Virus record (IMG/VR): IMGVR_UViG_2563366840_000010
Span: 1-45,700 of that record
From: a virus
Taxonomy: Duplodnaviria; Heunggongvirae; Uroviricota; Caudoviricetes
Length of the DNA: 45,700 nucleotides
Direction: 5' to 3' (one strand)
A program made the translations under genes and the position numbers. The notes beneath the pieces are model-generated. The model saw nothing but the letters and a program-made list of their open reading frames with translations. It did not search any database and was not told the origin of the DNA. This document shows, piece after piece, positions 9,995-16,518 of this stretch. The first letter of the stretch is position 1. Each line of letters starts with the position of its first letter.

Positions 9995-10552
9995 ATGCAA
10001 ACACTTTCTTTTCAACAGAATAACAGAGCGCCATCAGAGCACCTGAAATTCCAGTATCAACACAGTGAGGCTGAAGGCCAGCCGGTCGATCACCGGGCTA
10101 TCTGTTCTGCCGTCCGCGCCTGGGCGGCGGCAGAGGGCCGCGTGGCGGTCGCTCTGGCGATTAAAGAGGCTGCCGAACAGGCCGAGCTTGACAGCATTGA
10201 CATGACCGGCAGCGCCGATGTGTGGAACGTGAAGCTGTTTCGCTGGCTGGACAACCACGAGAAATCACCGGCCTACCGGGCGAACGTCGAGCAGCTGGCG
10301 CCGGTAATAATTTCGGTTCTGCCGCTGGCGTACCGGGATCGCGTGATTAAGCACGACTGCTTTGCGGTTCGTGTCGCCAGGTCGGTGAAAGAAGACGCTG
10401 AGGCGATACAGGCTGTCGTCCTCAAAGCCCCCAGACACGAACGGATGAAGGAAATCAGCGAGAGCATCGTAGCCAAGCTCTACCTGGACGGACCTGATTC
10501 TGTGGCGCCCATTATGGCGATGGTTACAACGATGCTGGGTGGTGCGCTATGA
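9995..10552 (+). CDS. YdaT-like / CII-position regulatory protein (185 aa)
   Basis: Follows the cro-like gene with AGGAG RBS; segment FRWLDNHEKSP..LAPVIISVLPLAYRDRV resembles Rac YdaT from memory. Confidence 0.6.
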   Translation: MQTLSFQQNNRAPSEHLKFQYQHSEAEGQPVDHRAICSAVRAWAAAEGRVAVALAIKEAAEQAELDSIDMTGSADVWNVKLFRWLDNHEKSPAYRANVEQLAPVIISVLPLAYRDRVIKHDCFAVRVARSVKEDAEAIQAVVLKAPRHERMKEISESIVAKLYLDGPDSVAPIMAMVTTMLGGAL

Positions 10553-10636
10553 CGGGCTCAGAAATGGCGAAAGCCGCGGTGCTCGAACACCAACGGCTTT
10601 CAGGTGCAAAAACTGTGCGTAATTGCGGAGAACAGT

Positions 10637-11545
10637 ATGTCAAATACCGCTGAAATAATCAATTTCCCAAATAAAACCGAACAACCGGGAGGTCGTATGG
10701 CCGACCTGTCGAACGGGTATACCAAGGTCGCTAACGAGATCCAACAGCTTAAGCCTCGCCTGAGACTGTCAGGCCGGGAATGGCAATGTTTTGAGGCGGT
10801 GATCTGGCTTACCTACGGCTGGAACAAGAAACAGGACCGCGTGACAAATACGGTTATTGCCGAGCTTACGGGCCTGAGCGATACGCATGTATCGGACGCG
10901 CTTAAGTCTCTCGCAGAACGCAAAATCATCTTTTCACAGAAGCAGGGCATGATGAAAATCGTCGGTGTAAACACTGACCTTTCAGCATGGATTTTAGACA
11001 AACCGGAAACGGGAAGAAAATTCCCGAAAACGGGAAAATCCTTCCCGAAATCAGGAATAACCTTCCCGAAAACGGTAGACACCCAATACAAGAACAAGAA
11101 CAGTATTAAAAGATCTTCGTCCGAGAATTCTGACGAATCCTCTGACGCACGTCTGAAGAAATTTTTATCAACTCATCCTGAAGCTGCGGTCTACACACCA
11201 TCCGGTGCGAAGTGGGGCTCTGCTGAAGACCTCGAGACAGCTAAGTGGATTTCCTCCAGGGTGAAGCTGATTAACCCAACCTGCAAAGCCCCGGACATGA
11301 CCTCCTGGTCTAACACTGTTCGCCTGATGCGCCAGATAGACAACCGGTCGCACCAGGACATCTGCGCGCTGTATGACTGGGCTAGCAAACACCACTTCTG
11401 GCAGACCAACATCCTGAGTCCCGAAAGCCTGCGTAAGCAGTGGGACAAGCTGACAATGCAGCGTAACGCCGGAGGTGAGCAGCGCGCTGTCAAGCCAGAT
11501 CTGGACTTCAACAACACTGACTGGGCCTATGGGGTGATCCGATGA
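10637..11545 (+). CDS. O: replication initiator, lambda O-like (302 aa)
   Basis: N-terminus MSNTAEIINFPN parallels lambda O MTNTAKILNF; GGAGAA RBS; iterons inside the gene. Confidence 0.8.
   Translation: MSNTAEIINFPNKTEQPGGRMADLSNGYTKVANEIQQLKPRLRLSGREWQCFEAVIWLTYGWNKKQDRVTNTVIAELTGLSDTHVSDALKSLAERKIIFSQKQGMMKIVGVNTDLSAWILDKPETGRKFPKTGKSFPKSGITFPKTVDTQYKNKNSIKRSSSENSDESSDARLKKFLSTHPEAAVYTPSGAKWGSAEDLETAKWISSRVKLINPTCKAPDMTSWSNTVRLMRQIDNRSHQDICALYDWASKHHFWQTNILSPESLRKQWDKLTMQRNAGGEQRAVKPDLDFNNTDWAYGVIR
11003..11075. repeat. origin iterons: four copies of TTCCCGAAAACGGGAA-like inverted-repeat units at ~20 bp spacing, followed by an A/T-rich tract
   Basis: Seen directly at 11004..11017, 11021..11038, 11041..11057, 11061..11075; encodes the GRKFPKTGKSFPKSGITFPKT protein repeat. 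Confidence 0.65.
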
Positions 11546-12231
11546 AATCTCTTGCAGAGCAGATGCGTAACCACGACCGCGAGCAGATGAGCCGCATGGC
11601 CCATAACCTGCCAGAGCAGTACCAGGAGTGCGCGCCGGTCGAGCAGGTGGCGCAGGTATTCAACAAGCTGTTCAACGAGCTGCGCGCCGCGTTCCCGGCC
11701 AGCATGGCGAACTTCCGCACCCAGGAAGACCTGAACGAATTCCGCCGTCAGTGGCTGCTGGCGTTTCAGGAGAACGGGATCCACACCATGGCTCAGGTCG
11801 ATGCCGGCATGCGCATTGCCCGCCGCCAGGAGCGCCCATTCCTGCCGTCGCCGGGCCAGTTCGTCGCCTGGTGCAAGCAGAGCGGCGGCGCGCTGGGCGT
11901 CAACGTTGACCAGGTGATCGCCGAATACTGGGACTGGCGTAACCGCTCGTTCGAATTCATCTCCAGCGAGCAATTTCCATGGTCGCAGCCGGTCATGTAC
12001 CACATTTGCGTAGAATTGCGCCACCGCAGCACCGAGCGCCAGTTAACGCATGGTGAACTGGCACGCGAGGCAGGCGATCTGCTGGACATGTGGGAAAGGC
12101 GCGTCACCGAGGGTAAGCCAGTGCCGCCGGTACGCCGGGCTATTGCCGCACCAGCTGCCGAGCAAGGGCCGACGCCGATCCAGCTGCTGCTGGCCAAGTA
12201 CAACCGCAACAAGTCGAACGGGATGGTGTGA
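11542..12231 (+). CDS. P: replication protein P-like helicase loader (229 aa)
   Basis: Start overlaps O stop; position and size as lambda P. Confidence 0.7.
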   Translation: MKSLAEQMRNHDREQMSRMAHNLPEQYQECAPVEQVAQVFNKLFNELRAAFPASMANFRTQEDLNEFRRQWLLAFQENGIHTMAQVDAGMRIARRQERPFLPSPGQFVAWCKQSGGALGVNVDQVIAEYWDWRNRSFEFISSEQFPWSQPVMYHICVELRHRSTERQLTHGELAREAGDLLDMWERRVTEGKPVPPVRRAIAAPAAEQGPTPIQLLLAKYNRNKSNGMV

Positions 12232-12290
12232 CATGAACATAACAATCCGTGAGCAGGTGCTGGCAGCCCTGCGCAACAACCCAGGGTTGA

Positions 12291-12473
12291 ACAACGCCAA
12301 ACTGGCAGGGCTTCCCGGAGTGGTACATCATCGATCAGGACTATCGGGGGCAGAAGTACGCGAAGGACAAGCAGGTTGCGCGTTGTGGCAACGCAGTTCC
12401 GCCGCCATTCGCCGAGGCACTGGTGAGGGCTAATTTACCGGAGCTTTGTCAGCAGAAAGAGATCGCAGCTTAA
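12291..12473 (+). pseudogene. remnant of a DNA cytosine methyltransferase 3' end (...ARCGNAVPPPFAEALVRANLPELCQQKEIAA)
   Basis: Frame opens after a stop at 12288 with no start codon; GNAV motif-X-like tail; overlaps a 66-aa ORF from 12233 in another frame. Confidence 0.5.
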
Positions 12474-12537
12474 TGTCCGAGTTTCAGAACATGGTGTAAC
12501 AAATCCTGCTACTTCAATGACGTAGATTCAAACCTGA

Positions 12538-12543
12538 TATAAT
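12538..12543 (+). promoter_or_regulatory. TATAAT -10 hexamer of a putative promoter for the 78-aa gene
   Basis: Perfect TATAAT 30 bp upstream of the ATG, with a TGAC-containing -35-like region. Confidence 0.4.
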
Positions 12544-12572
12544 TAGGCTCTTCACAACACGAGGAGCCTAAA

Positions 12573-12809
12573 ATGCACCATTACATGATCCCTATCAACG
12601 GAACTGTTCACCTGATCAAGACTGACTCTCTAATCCCTGAAGGGACTGAGTATAGCTTTGAAGGAGAAAGTCTAATCTGCGCTCATGCCACTTTTAAATC
12701 TGGGACGTATGGCTTCCTGATACCAAAGGGAAATCAGTTGAATAGAGAGCATGCGTTCTGGCATGTAAGTGGAATTCACCCTAATCCCCTGGGAATGGAT
12801 AAATCGTAA
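12573..12809 (+). CDS. hypothetical small protein (78 aa), moron
   Basis: GAGGAG RBS; lies between two diverged copies of the methyltransferase 3' end. Confidence 0.6.
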   Translation: MHHYMIPINGTVHLIKTDSLIPEGTEYSFEGESLICAHATFKSGTYGFLIPKGNQLNREHAFWHVSGIHPNPLGMDKS

Positions 12810-12827
12810 TCCATAATATGCATGCCA

Positions 12828-12864
12828 TCGTCCTGAACATACGGTGGCATGCATCCGGCACTAC
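12828..12864 (+). terminator. 13-bp-stem hairpin (ATGCATGCCATCG...CGGTGGCATGCAT) just after the 78-aa gene; no T-tract
   Basis: Inverted repeat with one mismatch seen directly. Confidence 0.4.
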
Positions 12865-12920
12865 AACAGAAACGTTAAAGTGCAAACAATACAATTCGAG
12901 CAATATTCAACCTGTCACAG

Positions 12921-13064
12921 ATGGCGAATACCACCGCCATTTCGTGCATTCTGTGGTTTCTATTACCCATTGCGTTAATGCTGTCCAATCATCAGCTCGC
13001 TGAGGCGCTGGTTAGGGCTAACCTACAGGAGCTTTGTCAGCAGAAACAAATAGCGGCGTAATAA
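12921..13064 (+). pseudogene. second methyltransferase 3'-end remnant (47-codon ORF ending ...AEALVRANLQELCQQKQIAA)
   Basis: ~80% identical at DNA level to 12411..12472. Confidence 0.4.
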
Positions 13065-13078
13065 AACATCGCTAATTC

Positions 13079-13106
13079 AACCCGCTACGGCGGGTTTTCT
13101 TTTTTT
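13079..13106 (+). terminator. intrinsic terminator (CCCGC-tacg-GCGGG + T-rich run)
   Basis: Seen directly. Confidence 0.65.
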
Positions 13107-13168
13107 ACTACTGACAGAAAATTAACAATTTGTGCTCTTAAAGCGTTGATCATTTCCGCGCATAGGTA

Positions 13169-13188
13169 TACTGTATAAAAACACAGTA
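13169..13188. promoter_or_regulatory. LexA (SOS) box TACTGTATAAAAACACAGTA
   Basis: Exact CTGT-N8-ACAG with TA flanks, 19 bp upstream of the dinI-like ATG. Confidence 0.8.
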
Positions 13189-13206
13189 AATGCAATGGGG
13201 GCCATT

Positions 13207-13440
13207 ATGAAAGTTGAATTAACCATTGATCGCATGAAAGAACTTCCTAAAGGCGCAGTACCAGCACTGGAGAAAGAACTGCTTAAGCGCCTGAATGATC
13301 ACTATGACAATTGCAGGCTCACAATCCGCCGTGCCGGGGCCGATGGGTTAAGTGTTTTTGGTGGTGACAAGGACGATAAAAAGAAAATTGAATCAATCCT
13401 CCAGGATACCTGGGAAAGCGCTGACGACTGGTTTTATTAG
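13207..13440 (+). CDS. dinI: DinI-like SOS-inducible protein (77 aa)
   Basis: MKVELTIDR...ILQDTWESADDWFY closely parallels E. coli DinI including the WESADDWF C-terminus. Confidence 0.85.
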   Translation: MKVELTIDRMKELPKGAVPALEKELLKRLNDHYDNCRLTIRRAGADGLSVFGGDKDDKKKIESILQDTWESADDWFY

Positions 13441-13557
13441 AATTGCGCTTAAGGCTGGCGCGCATTTTTCAGAATACCGCAATTTGCGTAACCCTCTGAT
13501 GCTGCTGCCGACAATCTTTAATCGCGTCTGTTAGTCGCTCGAAGGGAGAACATAAAT

Positions 13558-13806
13558 GTGAGTGATTCAGCTTTGCAAACGTCAGAAGACAACTGGTATG
13601 ACATTGTAAGAAGGTCTGACGGCTGCGTGGTGTTTAGCTTTCCTTCATCGGGCAGGCATCTAATTTATCGCGTCAATGGCATGGTTTCTATGCGGCCTTT
13701 GCTGGATGATGAAGAGGTCTTTACTCCTAATGGTTTTATGCAGTTTATTCACCGTCTCGGCTACCGGGTAACCCCACCTTCTGATAATATGAAATCAACG
13801 GTCTGA
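13558..13806 (+). CDS. hypothetical protein (82 aa, GTG start); candidate LexA-controlled antirepressor
   Basis: GAAGGGAGAA RBS; directly downstream of dinI in the same unit. Confidence 0.45.
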   Translation: MSDSALQTSEDNWYDIVRRSDGCVVFSFPSSGRHLIYRVNGMVSMRPLLDDEEVFTPNGFMQFIHRLGYRVTPPSDNMKSTV

Positions 13807-13840: not shown

Positions 13841-14440
13841 ATGGCGCACGAACTACAACTCATCAAGCATTCCTCAGGAATCCTGATCCCCGCTACGCCG
13901 GAGACCAGTGATTTACTGCAATCAAAAATCAAACTCGGCTCCGTACTGGTGGCTGAGTTCCGGCAGGTACGCAACCCGGCCTTTCACCGTCGTTTCTTCG
14001 CGTTACTCAATCTCGGTTTCGAATACTGGGAACCCACCGGCGGGGCAATCTCCTCCAACGAACGCAAGCTGGTAACCGGCTATGCCAAGTTCCTTGCCTC
14101 ATTCGCGGGAAGTGAAGCAGCACTCCTGGATGCTGCTGAGCAATATCTGGACCGCATCGCCGATAAGCGCGCCGGTAGTATCAGCATCTGCAAATCCTAT
14201 GACGCATATCGTGCATGGGTGATCATCGAGTCTGGCCACTACGACGCCATACAGCTTCCCGACGGCACCCTTCGCAAACACCCCCGCAGCATTGCCTTTG
14301 CCAACATGGACGAAACCGAGTTCCAGCAGCTGTACAAAGCCGCGCTCGATGTTCTGTGGCGCTGGGTATTGTCCCGGGCATTCAAGGACCAGCGTGAAGC
14401 GGAAAACGCCGCATCGCAGCTCATGAGCTTTGCGGGGTGA
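13841..14440 (+). CDS. conserved phage protein of unknown function, nin-region (199 aa)
   Basis: Clean ORF with plausible start. Confidence 0.6.
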   Translation: MAHELQLIKHSSGILIPATPETSDLLQSKIKLGSVLVAEFRQVRNPAFHRRFFALLNLGFEYWEPTGGAISSNERKLVTGYAKFLASFAGSEAALLDAAEQYLDRIADKRAGSISICKSYDAYRAWVIIESGHYDAIQLPDGTLRKHPRSIAFANMDETEFQQLYKAALDVLWRWVLSRAFKDQREAENAASQLMSFAG

Positions 14441-16443: not shown

Positions 16444-16518
16444 GGGTCAGTCGTATAAAGGTCATTACGGAAGGCTGTTAACCTTCTTATCGTGGTTCGA
16501 GTCCACGCTGTCCCGCCA
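16444..16518 (+). tRNA. tRNA-Asn (anticodon GTT), phage-encoded
   Basis: Hand-folded cloverleaf: acceptor stem with one T-T mismatch, D-loop with GG, anticodon stem GAAGG/CCTTC and loop CTGTTAA, T-arm CGTGG-TTCGAGT-CCACG, discriminator G, CCA. Confidence 0.55.

What the first reader, a model, noticed from the sequence alone, without database searches (positions are those of the whole stretch)
12405..13064. Small moron flanked by two diverged remnants of a methyltransferase 3' end
Sequences 12411..12472 and 13003..13064 are ~80% identical and both encode the last ~20 residues of a GNAV-type cytosine methyltransferase without an intact gene. Between them is a 78-aa gene with a TATAAT promoter element, GAGGAG RBS and a 13-bp-stem hairpin. 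This looks like repeated cassette exchange at the methyltransferase position of the nin region.
Basis: seen in the sequence. Interest (0 to 1): 0.55.

Follow-up and report, generated by a model that had tools for sequence, protein, structure and literature searches.

The report
Prophage moron inside a methyltransferase recombination scar
A small self-contained prophage gene of unknown function sits between two leftover ends of a DNA methyltransferase gene; this is ordinary phage mosaic evolution, but related genomes preserve each step, including loss of the gene by recombination between the two leftovers.

Summary
12409-12474 and 12997-13062 are a 66-nt direct repeat (55/66 identical, pairwise E 6e-15). 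Both copies are 3' ends of a phage C5-cytosine methyltransferase (MTase), and a real 78-codon gene (12573-12809) lies between them. "Repeated cassette exchange" is only half right.

- **Tail A (12306-12473):** the last 55 codons of the MTase that natively precedes orf78. The MTase is intact in sister prophages L020/L031. Here it was decapitated by a deletion between two 9-bp repeats (GCAGGGCTT, 12305-12313).
- **Tail B (about 12962-13061):** the true exchange scar. It comes from a different MTase allele and sits next to the terminator and the LexA-controlled dinI.
- **Excision:** four complete E. coli genomes keep the same 9-bp junction but lack the 588-bp moron. Their A/B hybrid tails have two different crossover points, so the repeats have recombined at least twice.
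- **orf78:** it carries a conserved extended -10 promoter and also occurs next to xis-int without any MTase. Only three diverged alleles were found. No family or fold matches.

The case is well documented but of a known kind. The function of orf78 remains open.

The parts
12233..12433 (+). Chimeric 66-codon ORF: the first 26 codons of the winged-helix ('Ren-like') gene run out of frame into the MTase remnant. RefSeq annotates it as a hypothetical protein; it is a by-product of the deletion.
   Evidence: The exact protein is on at least 1000 public contigs. The intact 114-aa wHTH gene is present in mEp237, CUWW10 and L020.
12305..12313 (.). Deletion junction GCAGGGCTT. It is the single surviving copy of a 9-bp direct repeat found twice in the undeleted relatives.
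   Evidence: The blastn pieces overlap by 9 nt. The repeat lies at L020 150 and 3733 and at mEp237 (L001) 2306 and 3024. The window equals mEp237/CUWW10 minus 718 bp, or L020 minus 3574 bp.
12306..12473 (+). Tail A: the last 55 codons plus stop of the C5-cytosine MTase, including motif X (GNAVPP). It is a pseudogene fragment.
   Evidence: tblastn against the Klebsiella phage 5 LV-2017 MTase, residues 661-715, 91% identity, E 1e-26. 98% identical to the L023 MTase. Pfam PF00145 at E 0.04 for this fragment and 4e-7 for the mEp237 fragment.
12409..12474 (+). Direct repeat, copy A (66 nt).
12517..12543 (+). orf78 promoter: -35-like ATGACG (12517-12522), 15-nt spacer, extended -10 TGATATAAT (12535-12543).
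   Evidence: Read. Annotated as a promoter in the mEp237 record. The core GATGACGTAGATTyAAACyTGATATAAT is conserved upstream of alleles 1, 2 and 3, although the proteins are only about 40% identical. The generic scan, which requires a 16-18 nt spacer, did not call it. Activity was not tested.
12561..12566 (+). Shine-Dalgarno sequence GAGGAG, 6 nt upstream of the ATG.
12573..12809 (+). orf78: a 78-aa cytoplasmic protein, mostly beta, of unknown function (phrog_30079; identical to mEp237 gp47).
   Evidence: ORF and PHROG hit. Ungapped 78-codon alignment with 39-42% identical alleles. Differences by codon position are 30/26/57. AlphaFold2 mean pLDDT 80.5.
12818..12854 (+). Hairpin with 14-nt arms and a 9-nt loop, dG -21.8 kcal/mol, with no U-tract.
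   Evidence: The stem is partly kept in variants, but 7 nt of its 5' arm are deleted in L024. It is not called as a terminator.
12855..12961 (.). Spacer of unknown origin that travels with allele 1 of orf78.
   Evidence: No significant similarity to MTase 3' regions or to neighbouring sequences in other contexts. The ORF spanning it in L023 has no homologues. Found only in the mEp237 lineage.
12962..13061 (+). Tail B: a remnant of about 32 codons from a different MTase allele. The 5' third (12962-12996) is degenerate and frame-shifted by one extra base at about 12994. The 3' two-thirds (12997-13061) are well conserved.
   Evidence: tblastn residues 684-715 in L022, L023 and L029. The 1-nt difference is visible. 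The 5' extension is significant. 12997-13060 is 98% identical to the tail in MSB1_9D. 59/61 identical to the L006 tail against 50/61 to tail A.
12997..13062 (+). Direct repeat, copy B (66 nt).
13079..13106 (+). Intrinsic terminator (AACCCGCTACGGCGGGTT plus T-run). It follows intact MTase genes in relatives and is the probable 3' end of the orf78 transcript here.
   Evidence: It is homologous to the terminator directly after the intact MTase of Klebsiella phage 5 LV-2017 and after the remnant in SEN34.
13169..13188 (.). LexA box TACTGTATAAAAACACAGTA, upstream of dinI (13207-13440). It marks the start of the downstream module.
   Evidence: Read. Pfam DinI at E 4e-26.

Best explanation
The locus is a moron sitting in a recombination scar in the nin region of a phi80/mEp237-like E. 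coli prophage. The moron is a self-contained unit of promoter, Shine-Dalgarno sequence and a 78-codon gene (orf78).

1. In the ancestral module, orf78 lies about 100 nt downstream of a large phage C5-cytosine MTase.
2. That MTase-orf78 module was once spliced into the 3' end of another MTase allele that lay just upstream of terminator-LexA box-dinI. The splice probably used one homologous crossover inside the MTase and one illegitimate joint at about codon 683. It left tail B.
3. In this lineage, short-homology deletions later removed the 5' part of the upstream MTase: 13 bp in mEp237 and the 9-bp GCAGGGCTT repeat in the window. Tail A was left behind, and the orf78 promoter and gene were untouched.
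4. Tails A and B now form 66-nt direct repeats. Homologous recombination across them removes the 588-bp moron.

Shown: steps 1, 3 and 4, through genomes that preserve each state. Inferred: the mechanism of step 2 and the direction of step 4.

Function of orf78 (inferred, weak): it is transcribed on its own from a conserved extended -10 promoter. Because it stays intact while the neighbouring MTase is destroyed repeatedly, it is selected independently of methylation. The most likely role is a prophage accessory or host-interaction protein, such as exclusion, defence or counter-defence.
For: - **Adjacent genes in relatives:** the intact MTase is followed directly by terminator-dinI in Klebsiella phage 5 LV-2017.
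- **Native MTase-orf78 pairing:** an intact MTase of 652-737 aa lies directly upstream of orf78 in L007, L020, L022, L023, L029, L031, L033, L034 and L036.
- **Same lineage with an intact MTase:** in L020/L031 the proteins P, wHTH, orf65, orf78, DinI, orf82 and DUF1367 are all 100% identical to the window's.
- **Deletion junctions:** both are defined to the base.
- **Repeated decapitation:** remnants start at MTase residues 594, 622, 645, 654-656, 661, 674 and 688, so the MTase was truncated several times independently while orf78 stayed intact.
- **Tail B is a different allele:** 59/61 identical to the MSB1_9D tail against 50/61 to tail A. In L026, L027 and L029 tail B differs and leads into a different downstream sequence. 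KL53 and MSB1_9D share the tail but differ downstream of it.
- **Excision:** M172-1, AR_0119, WEM25 and GPEC60-12-649 keep the 9-bp junction but lack orf78. The crossover lies within GAGGC in M172-1, and within GGAGCTTTGTCAGCAGAAA in AR_0119, the only one of the other three whose tail was read.
- **Counts in 5426 complete E. coli genomes:** 31 of the window type, 1 of the mEp237 type, 4 excised.
- **Moron features:** GC 0.40-0.44 against 0.56 in the flanking genes; a conserved promoter; the same module next to xis-int with no MTase in L008/L037.
- **Real coding gene:** codon-position differences of 30/26/57 between alleles.
Against: - No expression data exist, so the promoter is only a conserved consensus match. 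A generic sigma-70 scan did not call it because its spacer is 15 nt.
- The hairpin after orf78 is not a canonical terminator.
- No intact parental MTase carrying an exact B-type tail was recovered; every B-type tail found is itself a remnant.
- The moron-less genomes could in principle be ancestral, or could arise by exchange with a moron-less phage rather than by intramolecular deletion.
- Within allele 1 there are too few substitutions to estimate dN/dS reliably (0.26-1.08).
Confidence: 0.8

Rival explanations
1. One reading: two successive cassette replacements at the MTase position, each leaving a short MTase 3' stub, with the moron brought in as one of the cassettes.
For: The MTase 3' end is a real exchange point. 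KL53 and MSB1_9D differ downstream of a shared tail. SEN34 keeps a tail stub behind an unrelated reverse-strand gene. ECCWS199 keeps one behind other genes.
Against: Tail A continues into an intact MTase in the same lineage (L020/L031) and in 7 other loci. It was produced by a simple internal deletion between 9-bp repeats, not by replacement. orf78 is the MTase's regular downstream neighbour across diverged alleles.
Confidence: 0.1
2. In-situ duplication: inserting the orf78 segment into one MTase gene duplicated about 66-100 nt of target sequence, and copy B then decayed.
For: Direct repeats flank an inserted-looking, lower-GC segment.
Against: - Copy B is much closer to tails in other prophages (59/61 and 58/61) than to copy A (50/61).
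- Its divergence is strongly non-uniform, about 55-65% identity in the 5' third and 82% in the rest.
- No transposase, integrase or terminal inverted repeats are present.
- Target duplications of 66-100 nt are not a feature of known insertion mechanisms (own knowledge).
Confidence: 0.05
3. Tail B is kept because it is functional, for example as part of the orf78 3'UTR and terminator, as a regulatory element of the dinI module, or as a selected homology 'linker' for modular exchange. On this view it is not a neutral scar.
For: The final 61-66 nt are far better conserved than the adjacent 35 nt. A tail stub is kept next to terminator-dinI in several unrelated upstream contexts: SEN34, ECCWS199, KL53 and KMi029. 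It demonstrably mediates recombination.
Against: The better conservation is equally explained by repeated homologous exchange with other phages' MTase ends, since fine-scale mosaicism within the tail is visible. The reading frame is broken in the window, L024, L025 and L028. No Rfam family matches. Physical linkage to the terminator is enough to explain its persistence.
Confidence: 0.1

Closest known systems
Morons of lambdoid phages, as defined for HK97/HK022 (Juhala et al. 2000; cited from my own knowledge, not checked here)
   Same: A single extra gene lies between two genes that are adjacent in relatives. It has its own promoter, a lower GC content than its neighbours, the same orientation as the operon, and occurs at more than one position in different prophages.
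   Different: There is no canonical terminator directly after the gene in this allele; the hairpin lacks a U-tract, and the true terminator lies about 270 nt downstream. Allele 2 does have one directly after the gene. Expression from the prophage was not tested. The cassette is bracketed by 66-nt homologous stubs that allow precise loss.
Enterobacteria phage mEp237 gp47 (YP_007111420.1 / AFM76202.1) with its annotated promoter
   Same: The protein is identical, and the promoter, hairpin, spacer, tail B, terminator and dinI are the same (98-100% DNA identity).
   Different: mEp237 keeps the intact wHTH gene, a 65-aa gene and a longer MTase remnant (residues 594-715). The window has lost a further 718 bp between the GCAGGGCTT repeats. 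The mEp237 record calls gp47 hypothetical and does not mention tail B.
Large phage C5-cytosine MTases of the nin region, such as the Klebsiella phage 5 LV-2017 'putative methylase' ARB15725.1 (Pfam PF00145, TIGR00675 dcm superfamily)
   Same: Tails A and B are homologous to its C-terminus. The position between the replication genes and dinI/DUF1367 is the same.
   Different: The window has no functional MTase, only 55 and about 32 C-terminal codons. No catalytic motif IV or AdoMet-binding motif I is present.
Spontaneous short-homology deletions of the lambda nin region (for example nin5), and mosaic-boundary or 'linker' models of lambdoid evolution (Susskind and Botstein; Hendrix; Clark et al. 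2001; cited from my own knowledge)
   Same: Non-essential nin-region DNA is lost by deletions between short repeats of 9-13 bp. Modules are exchanged at gene ends that are shared between phages.
   Different: Here the shared sequence is a pseudogene stub rather than an intergenic linker, and the intermediate and product genomes are all available in public data.

Membership tests
Moron (independent promoter-gene-terminator unit in a phage genome) | The gene lies between two genes that are adjacent in related phages | tested here: met
   MTase is followed directly by terminator-dinI in Klebsiella phage 5 LV-2017. The tail is followed directly by terminator-dinI in M172-1, AR_0119 and KL53.
Moron (independent promoter-gene-terminator unit in a phage genome) | Own promoter immediately upstream | tested here: inconclusive
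   Sequence level only. The extended -10 TGATATAAT plus ATGACG is conserved across three diverged alleles and is annotated in mEp237. The generic scan did not call it because of the 15-nt spacer. Activity cannot be tested here.
Moron (independent promoter-gene-terminator unit in a phage genome) | Terminator immediately downstream | tested here: inconclusive
   The hairpin 12818-12854 lacks a U-tract. The canonical terminator is at 13079-13106. Allele 2 has a canonical terminator about 40 nt after its stop codon.
Moron (independent promoter-gene-terminator unit in a phage genome) | Base composition differs from the neighbours | tested here: met
   GC is 0.40 (promoter) and 0.44 (orf78) against 0.56-0.57 in O/P, tail A and DUF1367. 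dinI and orf82 are also low, at 0.45-0.47.
Moron (independent promoter-gene-terminator unit in a phage genome) | Expressed from the repressed prophage | not testable with these tools
   No transcriptome data are available.
C5-cytosine DNA methyltransferase (Pfam PF00145) | C-terminal motif X (GNAVPP) and following helix | tested here: met
   Tail A has CGNAVPPPF, with tblastn E 1e-26. Tail B keeps only the last 20 residues in frame, plus a degenerate, frame-shifted CVNAV.
C5-cytosine DNA methyltransferase (Pfam PF00145) | Complete catalytic core (motifs I-VIII, including the PC catalytic cysteine) | tested here: not met
   Only residues 661-715 are present. RefSeq marks the equivalent fragments as partial pseudogenes. 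No functional MTase is encoded here.
Transposable or integrative element with target-site duplication | Transposase or integrase, terminal inverted repeats, short identical direct repeats | tested here: not met
   No such gene lies between the repeats. The only inverted repeat is the internal hairpin. The direct repeats are 66 nt long and 17% diverged.
Known anti-phage defence proteins (PADLOC) and curated families (Pfam, NCBIfam, PHROGs with a function) | Significant profile match of orf78 | tested here: not met
   No hit in Pfam (best E 0.27), NCBIfam or PADLOC. The only match is phrog_30079, of unknown function.
Any solved or predicted fold family | Significant structural match of the orf78 model | tested here: not met

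The most novel reading that the evidence does not exclude
orf78 is a new-fold small effector, either a prophage-encoded exclusion or defence factor or a counter-defence partner of the anti-restriction MTase. It circulates among enterobacterial prophages as a promoter-plus-gene cassette, and the retained MTase 3' stubs act as portable homology arms that let the cassette be gained and lost by homologous recombination.
Probability: 0.2. Interest if true: 0.5.

Novelty: new member of a known kind. Interest (0 to 1): 0.27.

Why it matters
The locus gives an unusually complete natural series for lambdoid mosaic evolution, with every junction defined to the base:
- intact MTase-moron module;
- two different short-homology decapitations of the MTase;
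- two independent precise losses of the moron through pseudogene stubs.

It shows that leftover gene ends can serve as working homology arms for gaining and losing cassettes.

There are also practical consequences for annotation. The 32 complete RefSeq E. coli genomes that carry the moron have no feature annotated over orf78. The frame-fused junction ORF (12233-12433) is annotated as a hypothetical protein, and that exact sequence is on at least 1000 public contigs.

orf78 itself is a widespread gene under selection with no known family or fold, which makes it a reasonable candidate for functional screens. None of this changes current concepts.

Tried and rejected
- **Chance repeat:** rejected (E 6e-15).
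- **Spacer 12810-12996 as further degraded MTase:** local DNA alignment to five MTase 3' regions was no better than shuffles. Only the 35-38 nt next to the repeat show significant in-register similarity.
- **Spacer derived from sequences upstream of tails in L006, L039, L040 or SEN34:** no better than shuffles.
- **Spacer-spanning ORF as a gene:** the 61-aa ORF in the window (80 aa in L023) has no homologue among 5.8 billion proteins apart from itself, has no Shine-Dalgarno sequence, and is frame-broken in several variants. Rejected.
- **"Hotspot" at 12997:** many E. coli hits start exactly at query position 58. That boundary belongs to the query's own junction, so it is not independent evidence. 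Dropped.
- **orf78 family searches:** the k-mer search found only close relatives. The exhaustive HMMER search found 4 true relatives plus repetitive false positives, P0006-P0010. The genome-contig scan found nothing.
- **Known RNA families:** Rfam gave nothing significant in 12200-13250.
- **Literature:** nothing found on mEp237 gp47.
- **Hairpin 12818-12854 as a terminator or conserved RNA:** no U-tract, and only partly conserved. Left unexplained.

Full report
**Context.** The window is a phi80/mEp237-like lambdoid prophage of E. coli. Around the finding lie:
- replication genes O (10604-11545) and P (11542-12231);
- the region of interest;
- a LexA-box-controlled dinI (13207-13440);
- an 82-aa gene, then DUF1367 (13841-14440), NinG and Q.

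The 3-kb segment 11500-14500 is 99.9% identical to prophages in several complete E. coli genomes. It is 97.8% identical to phage mEp237, which carries 718 extra bases.

**The observation.**
- The repeat finder reports 12409-12474 and 12997-13062 as a 66-nt direct repeat, 83% identical (55/66) and 588 nt apart. Pairwise blastn gives E 6e-15.
- Copy A is the end of a longer remnant. In the frame of 12306-12473 it reads GFPEWYIIDQDYRGQKYAKDKQVARCGNAVPPPFAEALVRANLPELCQQKEIAA*. This is 91% identical to residues 661-715 of the intact 715-aa methylase of Klebsiella phage 5 LV-2017 (E 1e-26).
- The longer version in mEp237 hits Pfam PF00145 at E 4e-7, and the intact relatives hit dcm/MTase_II models.
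- Copy B reads AEALVRANLQELCQQKQIAA* and matches MTase residues 696-716 (in L003, which is identical to the window here).
- The 35-38 nt 5' of copy B still match MTase sequences in register at 55-66% (P 1e-4 to 2e-7). They encode a degenerate CVNAV. In L022, L023 and L029 this stretch is in frame with the tail; the window has one extra base at about 12994.
- Between the copies lie the 78-codon ORF 12573-12809, an extended -10 element TGATATAAT (12535-12543), GAGGAG (12561-12566) and the hairpin 12818-12854, dG -21.8 kcal/mol.

**Tail A is not an exchange scar.**
- IMG/VR loci L020 and L031 belong to the same lineage. Their P, wHTH, orf65, orf78, DinI, orf82 and DUF1367 proteins are all 100% identical to the window's.
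- Their gene order is P, wHTH, orf65, five small ORFs, an intact 652-aa MTase, orf78, spacer, tail B, terminator, dinI.
- The window equals L020 minus 3574 bp, or mEp237/CUWW10 minus 718 bp. The junction falls in a 9-bp sequence, GCAGGGCTT, which occurs once in the wHTH gene and once in the MTase of the undeleted genomes.
- The deletion fuses 26 wHTH codons out of frame to the MTase tail. The result is the 66-codon ORF 12233-12433, which RefSeq annotates as a hypothetical protein.
- mEp237 arose from an L020-like genome by a different 2852-bp deletion between GGC(C/G)GGTGGGCTG repeats.
- Across all related loci the upstream MTase is either intact (9 loci) or truncated at residues 594, 622, 645, 654-656, 661, 674 or 688. 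The promoter and orf78 are always intact. The MTase is therefore lost repeatedly while orf78 is retained.

**Tail B is the real scar, and it is an exchange point.**
- Tail B is present even where the upstream MTase is intact (L022, L023, L029), so it pre-dates the decay of the MTase.
- It is not a decayed copy of A. It is 59/61 identical to the tail in E. coli MSB1_9D and 58/61 to that in ECCWS199, but only 50/61 to tail A.
- It is followed by the same terminator that directly follows the intact MTase of Klebsiella phage 5 LV-2017 and the stub in Salmonella phage SEN34.
- KL53 and MSB1_9D share the same left junction and tail. KL53 then continues with terminator-dinI, while MSB1_9D continues with promoter-orf78'-terminator-theta.
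- In L026, L027 and L029 tail B is a different allele (about 79% identical) and leads into a different downstream sequence, although orf78 and the spacer are 92-99% identical to the window's.
- The simplest history is that an MTase-orf78 module was joined to an MTase-terminator-dinI module by one homologous crossover and one illegitimate crossover, and that further homologous exchanges followed within the tail. The joining mechanism is inferred. No intact parent with an exact B-type tail was found.

**The repeats recombine.**
- Four complete E. coli genomes (M172-1, AR_0119, WEM25, GPEC60-12-649) carry P, the same wHTH-MTase 9-bp junction, a single hybrid tail, the terminator and dinI, with no orf78.
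- In M172-1 the switch from A-type to B-type bases lies within GAGGC (12414-12418 / 13002-13006).
- In AR_0119 it lies within the 19-nt identical block GGAGCTTTGTCAGCAGAAA (12440-12458 / 13028-13046).
- The 588-bp moron has therefore been removed at least twice independently by recombination between the tails.
- Among 5426 complete genomes there are 31 of the window type, 1 of the mEp237 type and 4 excised.
- The direction (loss rather than gain) rests on parsimony. An exchange with a moron-less phage would give the same product.

**orf78.**
- It is a real gene. Alleles only 39-42% identical align over 75-78 codons without internal gaps. Nucleotide differences fall 30/26/57 on codon positions 1/2/3.
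- Invariant residues include C36, H38, Y46, G47 and a C-terminal PNPL motif.
- The family is very small. An exhaustive HMMER search of 1.84 billion representatives found four true relatives, plus the allele seen in MSB1_9D.
- The exact protein is nevertheless on at least 1000 public contigs, from E. coli and Citrobacter, and is always named hypothetical.
- The promoter core GATGACGTAGATTyAAACyTGATATAAT is conserved upstream of all three diverged alleles. L007 has its own extended -10, TGGTATAAT.
- In L008 and L037 the same promoter-gene unit sits next to xis-int with no MTase nearby. It is therefore a free-standing cassette with lower GC (0.40-0.44 against 0.56), which is the definition of a moron.
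- AlphaFold2 gives five beta strands and a C-terminal helix (pLDDT 80.5).
- My functional proposal is an independently expressed prophage accessory protein, selected independently of methylation. This is inference only.

**Comparison and verdict.**
- The locus fits the known moron concept and the known pattern of mosaicism and short-homology deletion in the nin region (own knowledge).
- The gene and its promoter are already annotated, as hypothetical, in mEp237.
- What is new is modest: the reconstruction of the two tails, the base-level junctions, the two independent excisions, and the annotation gaps noted above.
- Interest is low to moderate. The open question is what orf78 does.

Noticed in passing
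window 12573-12809: The 32 complete RefSeq E. coli genomes that carry this moron at 99.8% identity or better have no feature annotated over it. The same protein is annotated in mEp237 and in many GenBank records, and the 42% allele has a WP_ accession.
   Followed up: partly
window 12233-12433: RefSeq annotates a 66-aa 'hypothetical protein' (WP_001299077.1) that is a deletion artefact: 26 codons of a winged-helix gene read out of frame into the MTase remnant. The exact sequence is on at least 1000 public contigs.
   Followed up: yes
window 13169-13188 and 13207-13440: A near-consensus LexA box (TACTGTATAAAAACACAGTA) lies just upstream of a prophage dinI homologue (Pfam DinI, E 4e-26). The box is conserved in SEN34 and in Klebsiella phage 5 LV-2017.
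   Followed up: partly
window 12543-12572: The sequence TTAGGCTC...GAGCCTAA can form an 8-bp stem that sequesters the orf78 Shine-Dalgarno sequence. A weaker equivalent (GCTCC/GGAGC) exists in allele 2. The predicted transcription start falls inside the 5' arm, so the stem would form only in read-through transcripts from upstream. This was read by eye and not folded.
   Followed up: no
window 12475-12572 vs L006 3000-3098: The promoter and 5'UTR are about 81% identical between alleles 1 and 2, including a 33-nt identical block, while the coding sequences are too diverged to align as DNA (42% aa identity). This points either to strong constraint on the regulatory region or to a mosaic boundary at the start codon.
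   Followed up: partly
P0003 (142 aa, from the protein library): A predicted protein fuses about 82 residues that resemble (by eye) the N-terminus of the window's 185-aa protein upstream of O (9995-10552, YdaT family in RefSeq) to residues 19-78 of orf78. This implies another large deletion, removing O and P, in some defective prophage.
   Followed up: no
L020 1943-3901; L023 1751-3901; L033 1688-3901: The intact MTases are unusually large (652-737 aa), with several hundred residues between the N-terminal and C-terminal C5-MTase motifs. Length varies between alleles. This might reflect several target-recognition domains.
   Followed up: no
window 12818-12854: A strong hairpin (dG -21.8 kcal/mol) directly after orf78 has no U-tract and contains ATGCAT in both arms. 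The stem is partly kept in variants and partly deleted in L024. Its role is unknown.
   Followed up: partly
window 16444-16518: A tRNA-Asn (GTT) gene lies downstream of the Q antiterminator gene.
   Followed up: no
L040 2350-2441 (E. coli ECCWS199): A related prophage carries a reverse-strand tRNA-Ile and several small genes in place of MTase-orf78, and still keeps a tail-B stub in front of terminator-dinI.
   Followed up: no
window 12475-13800: The low-GC tract (0.38-0.48) covers not only orf78 but also dinI and the 82-aa gene (13558-13806). The whole stretch between tail A and DUF1367 looks like an accessory island inside a roughly 0.56-GC backbone.
   Followed up: no
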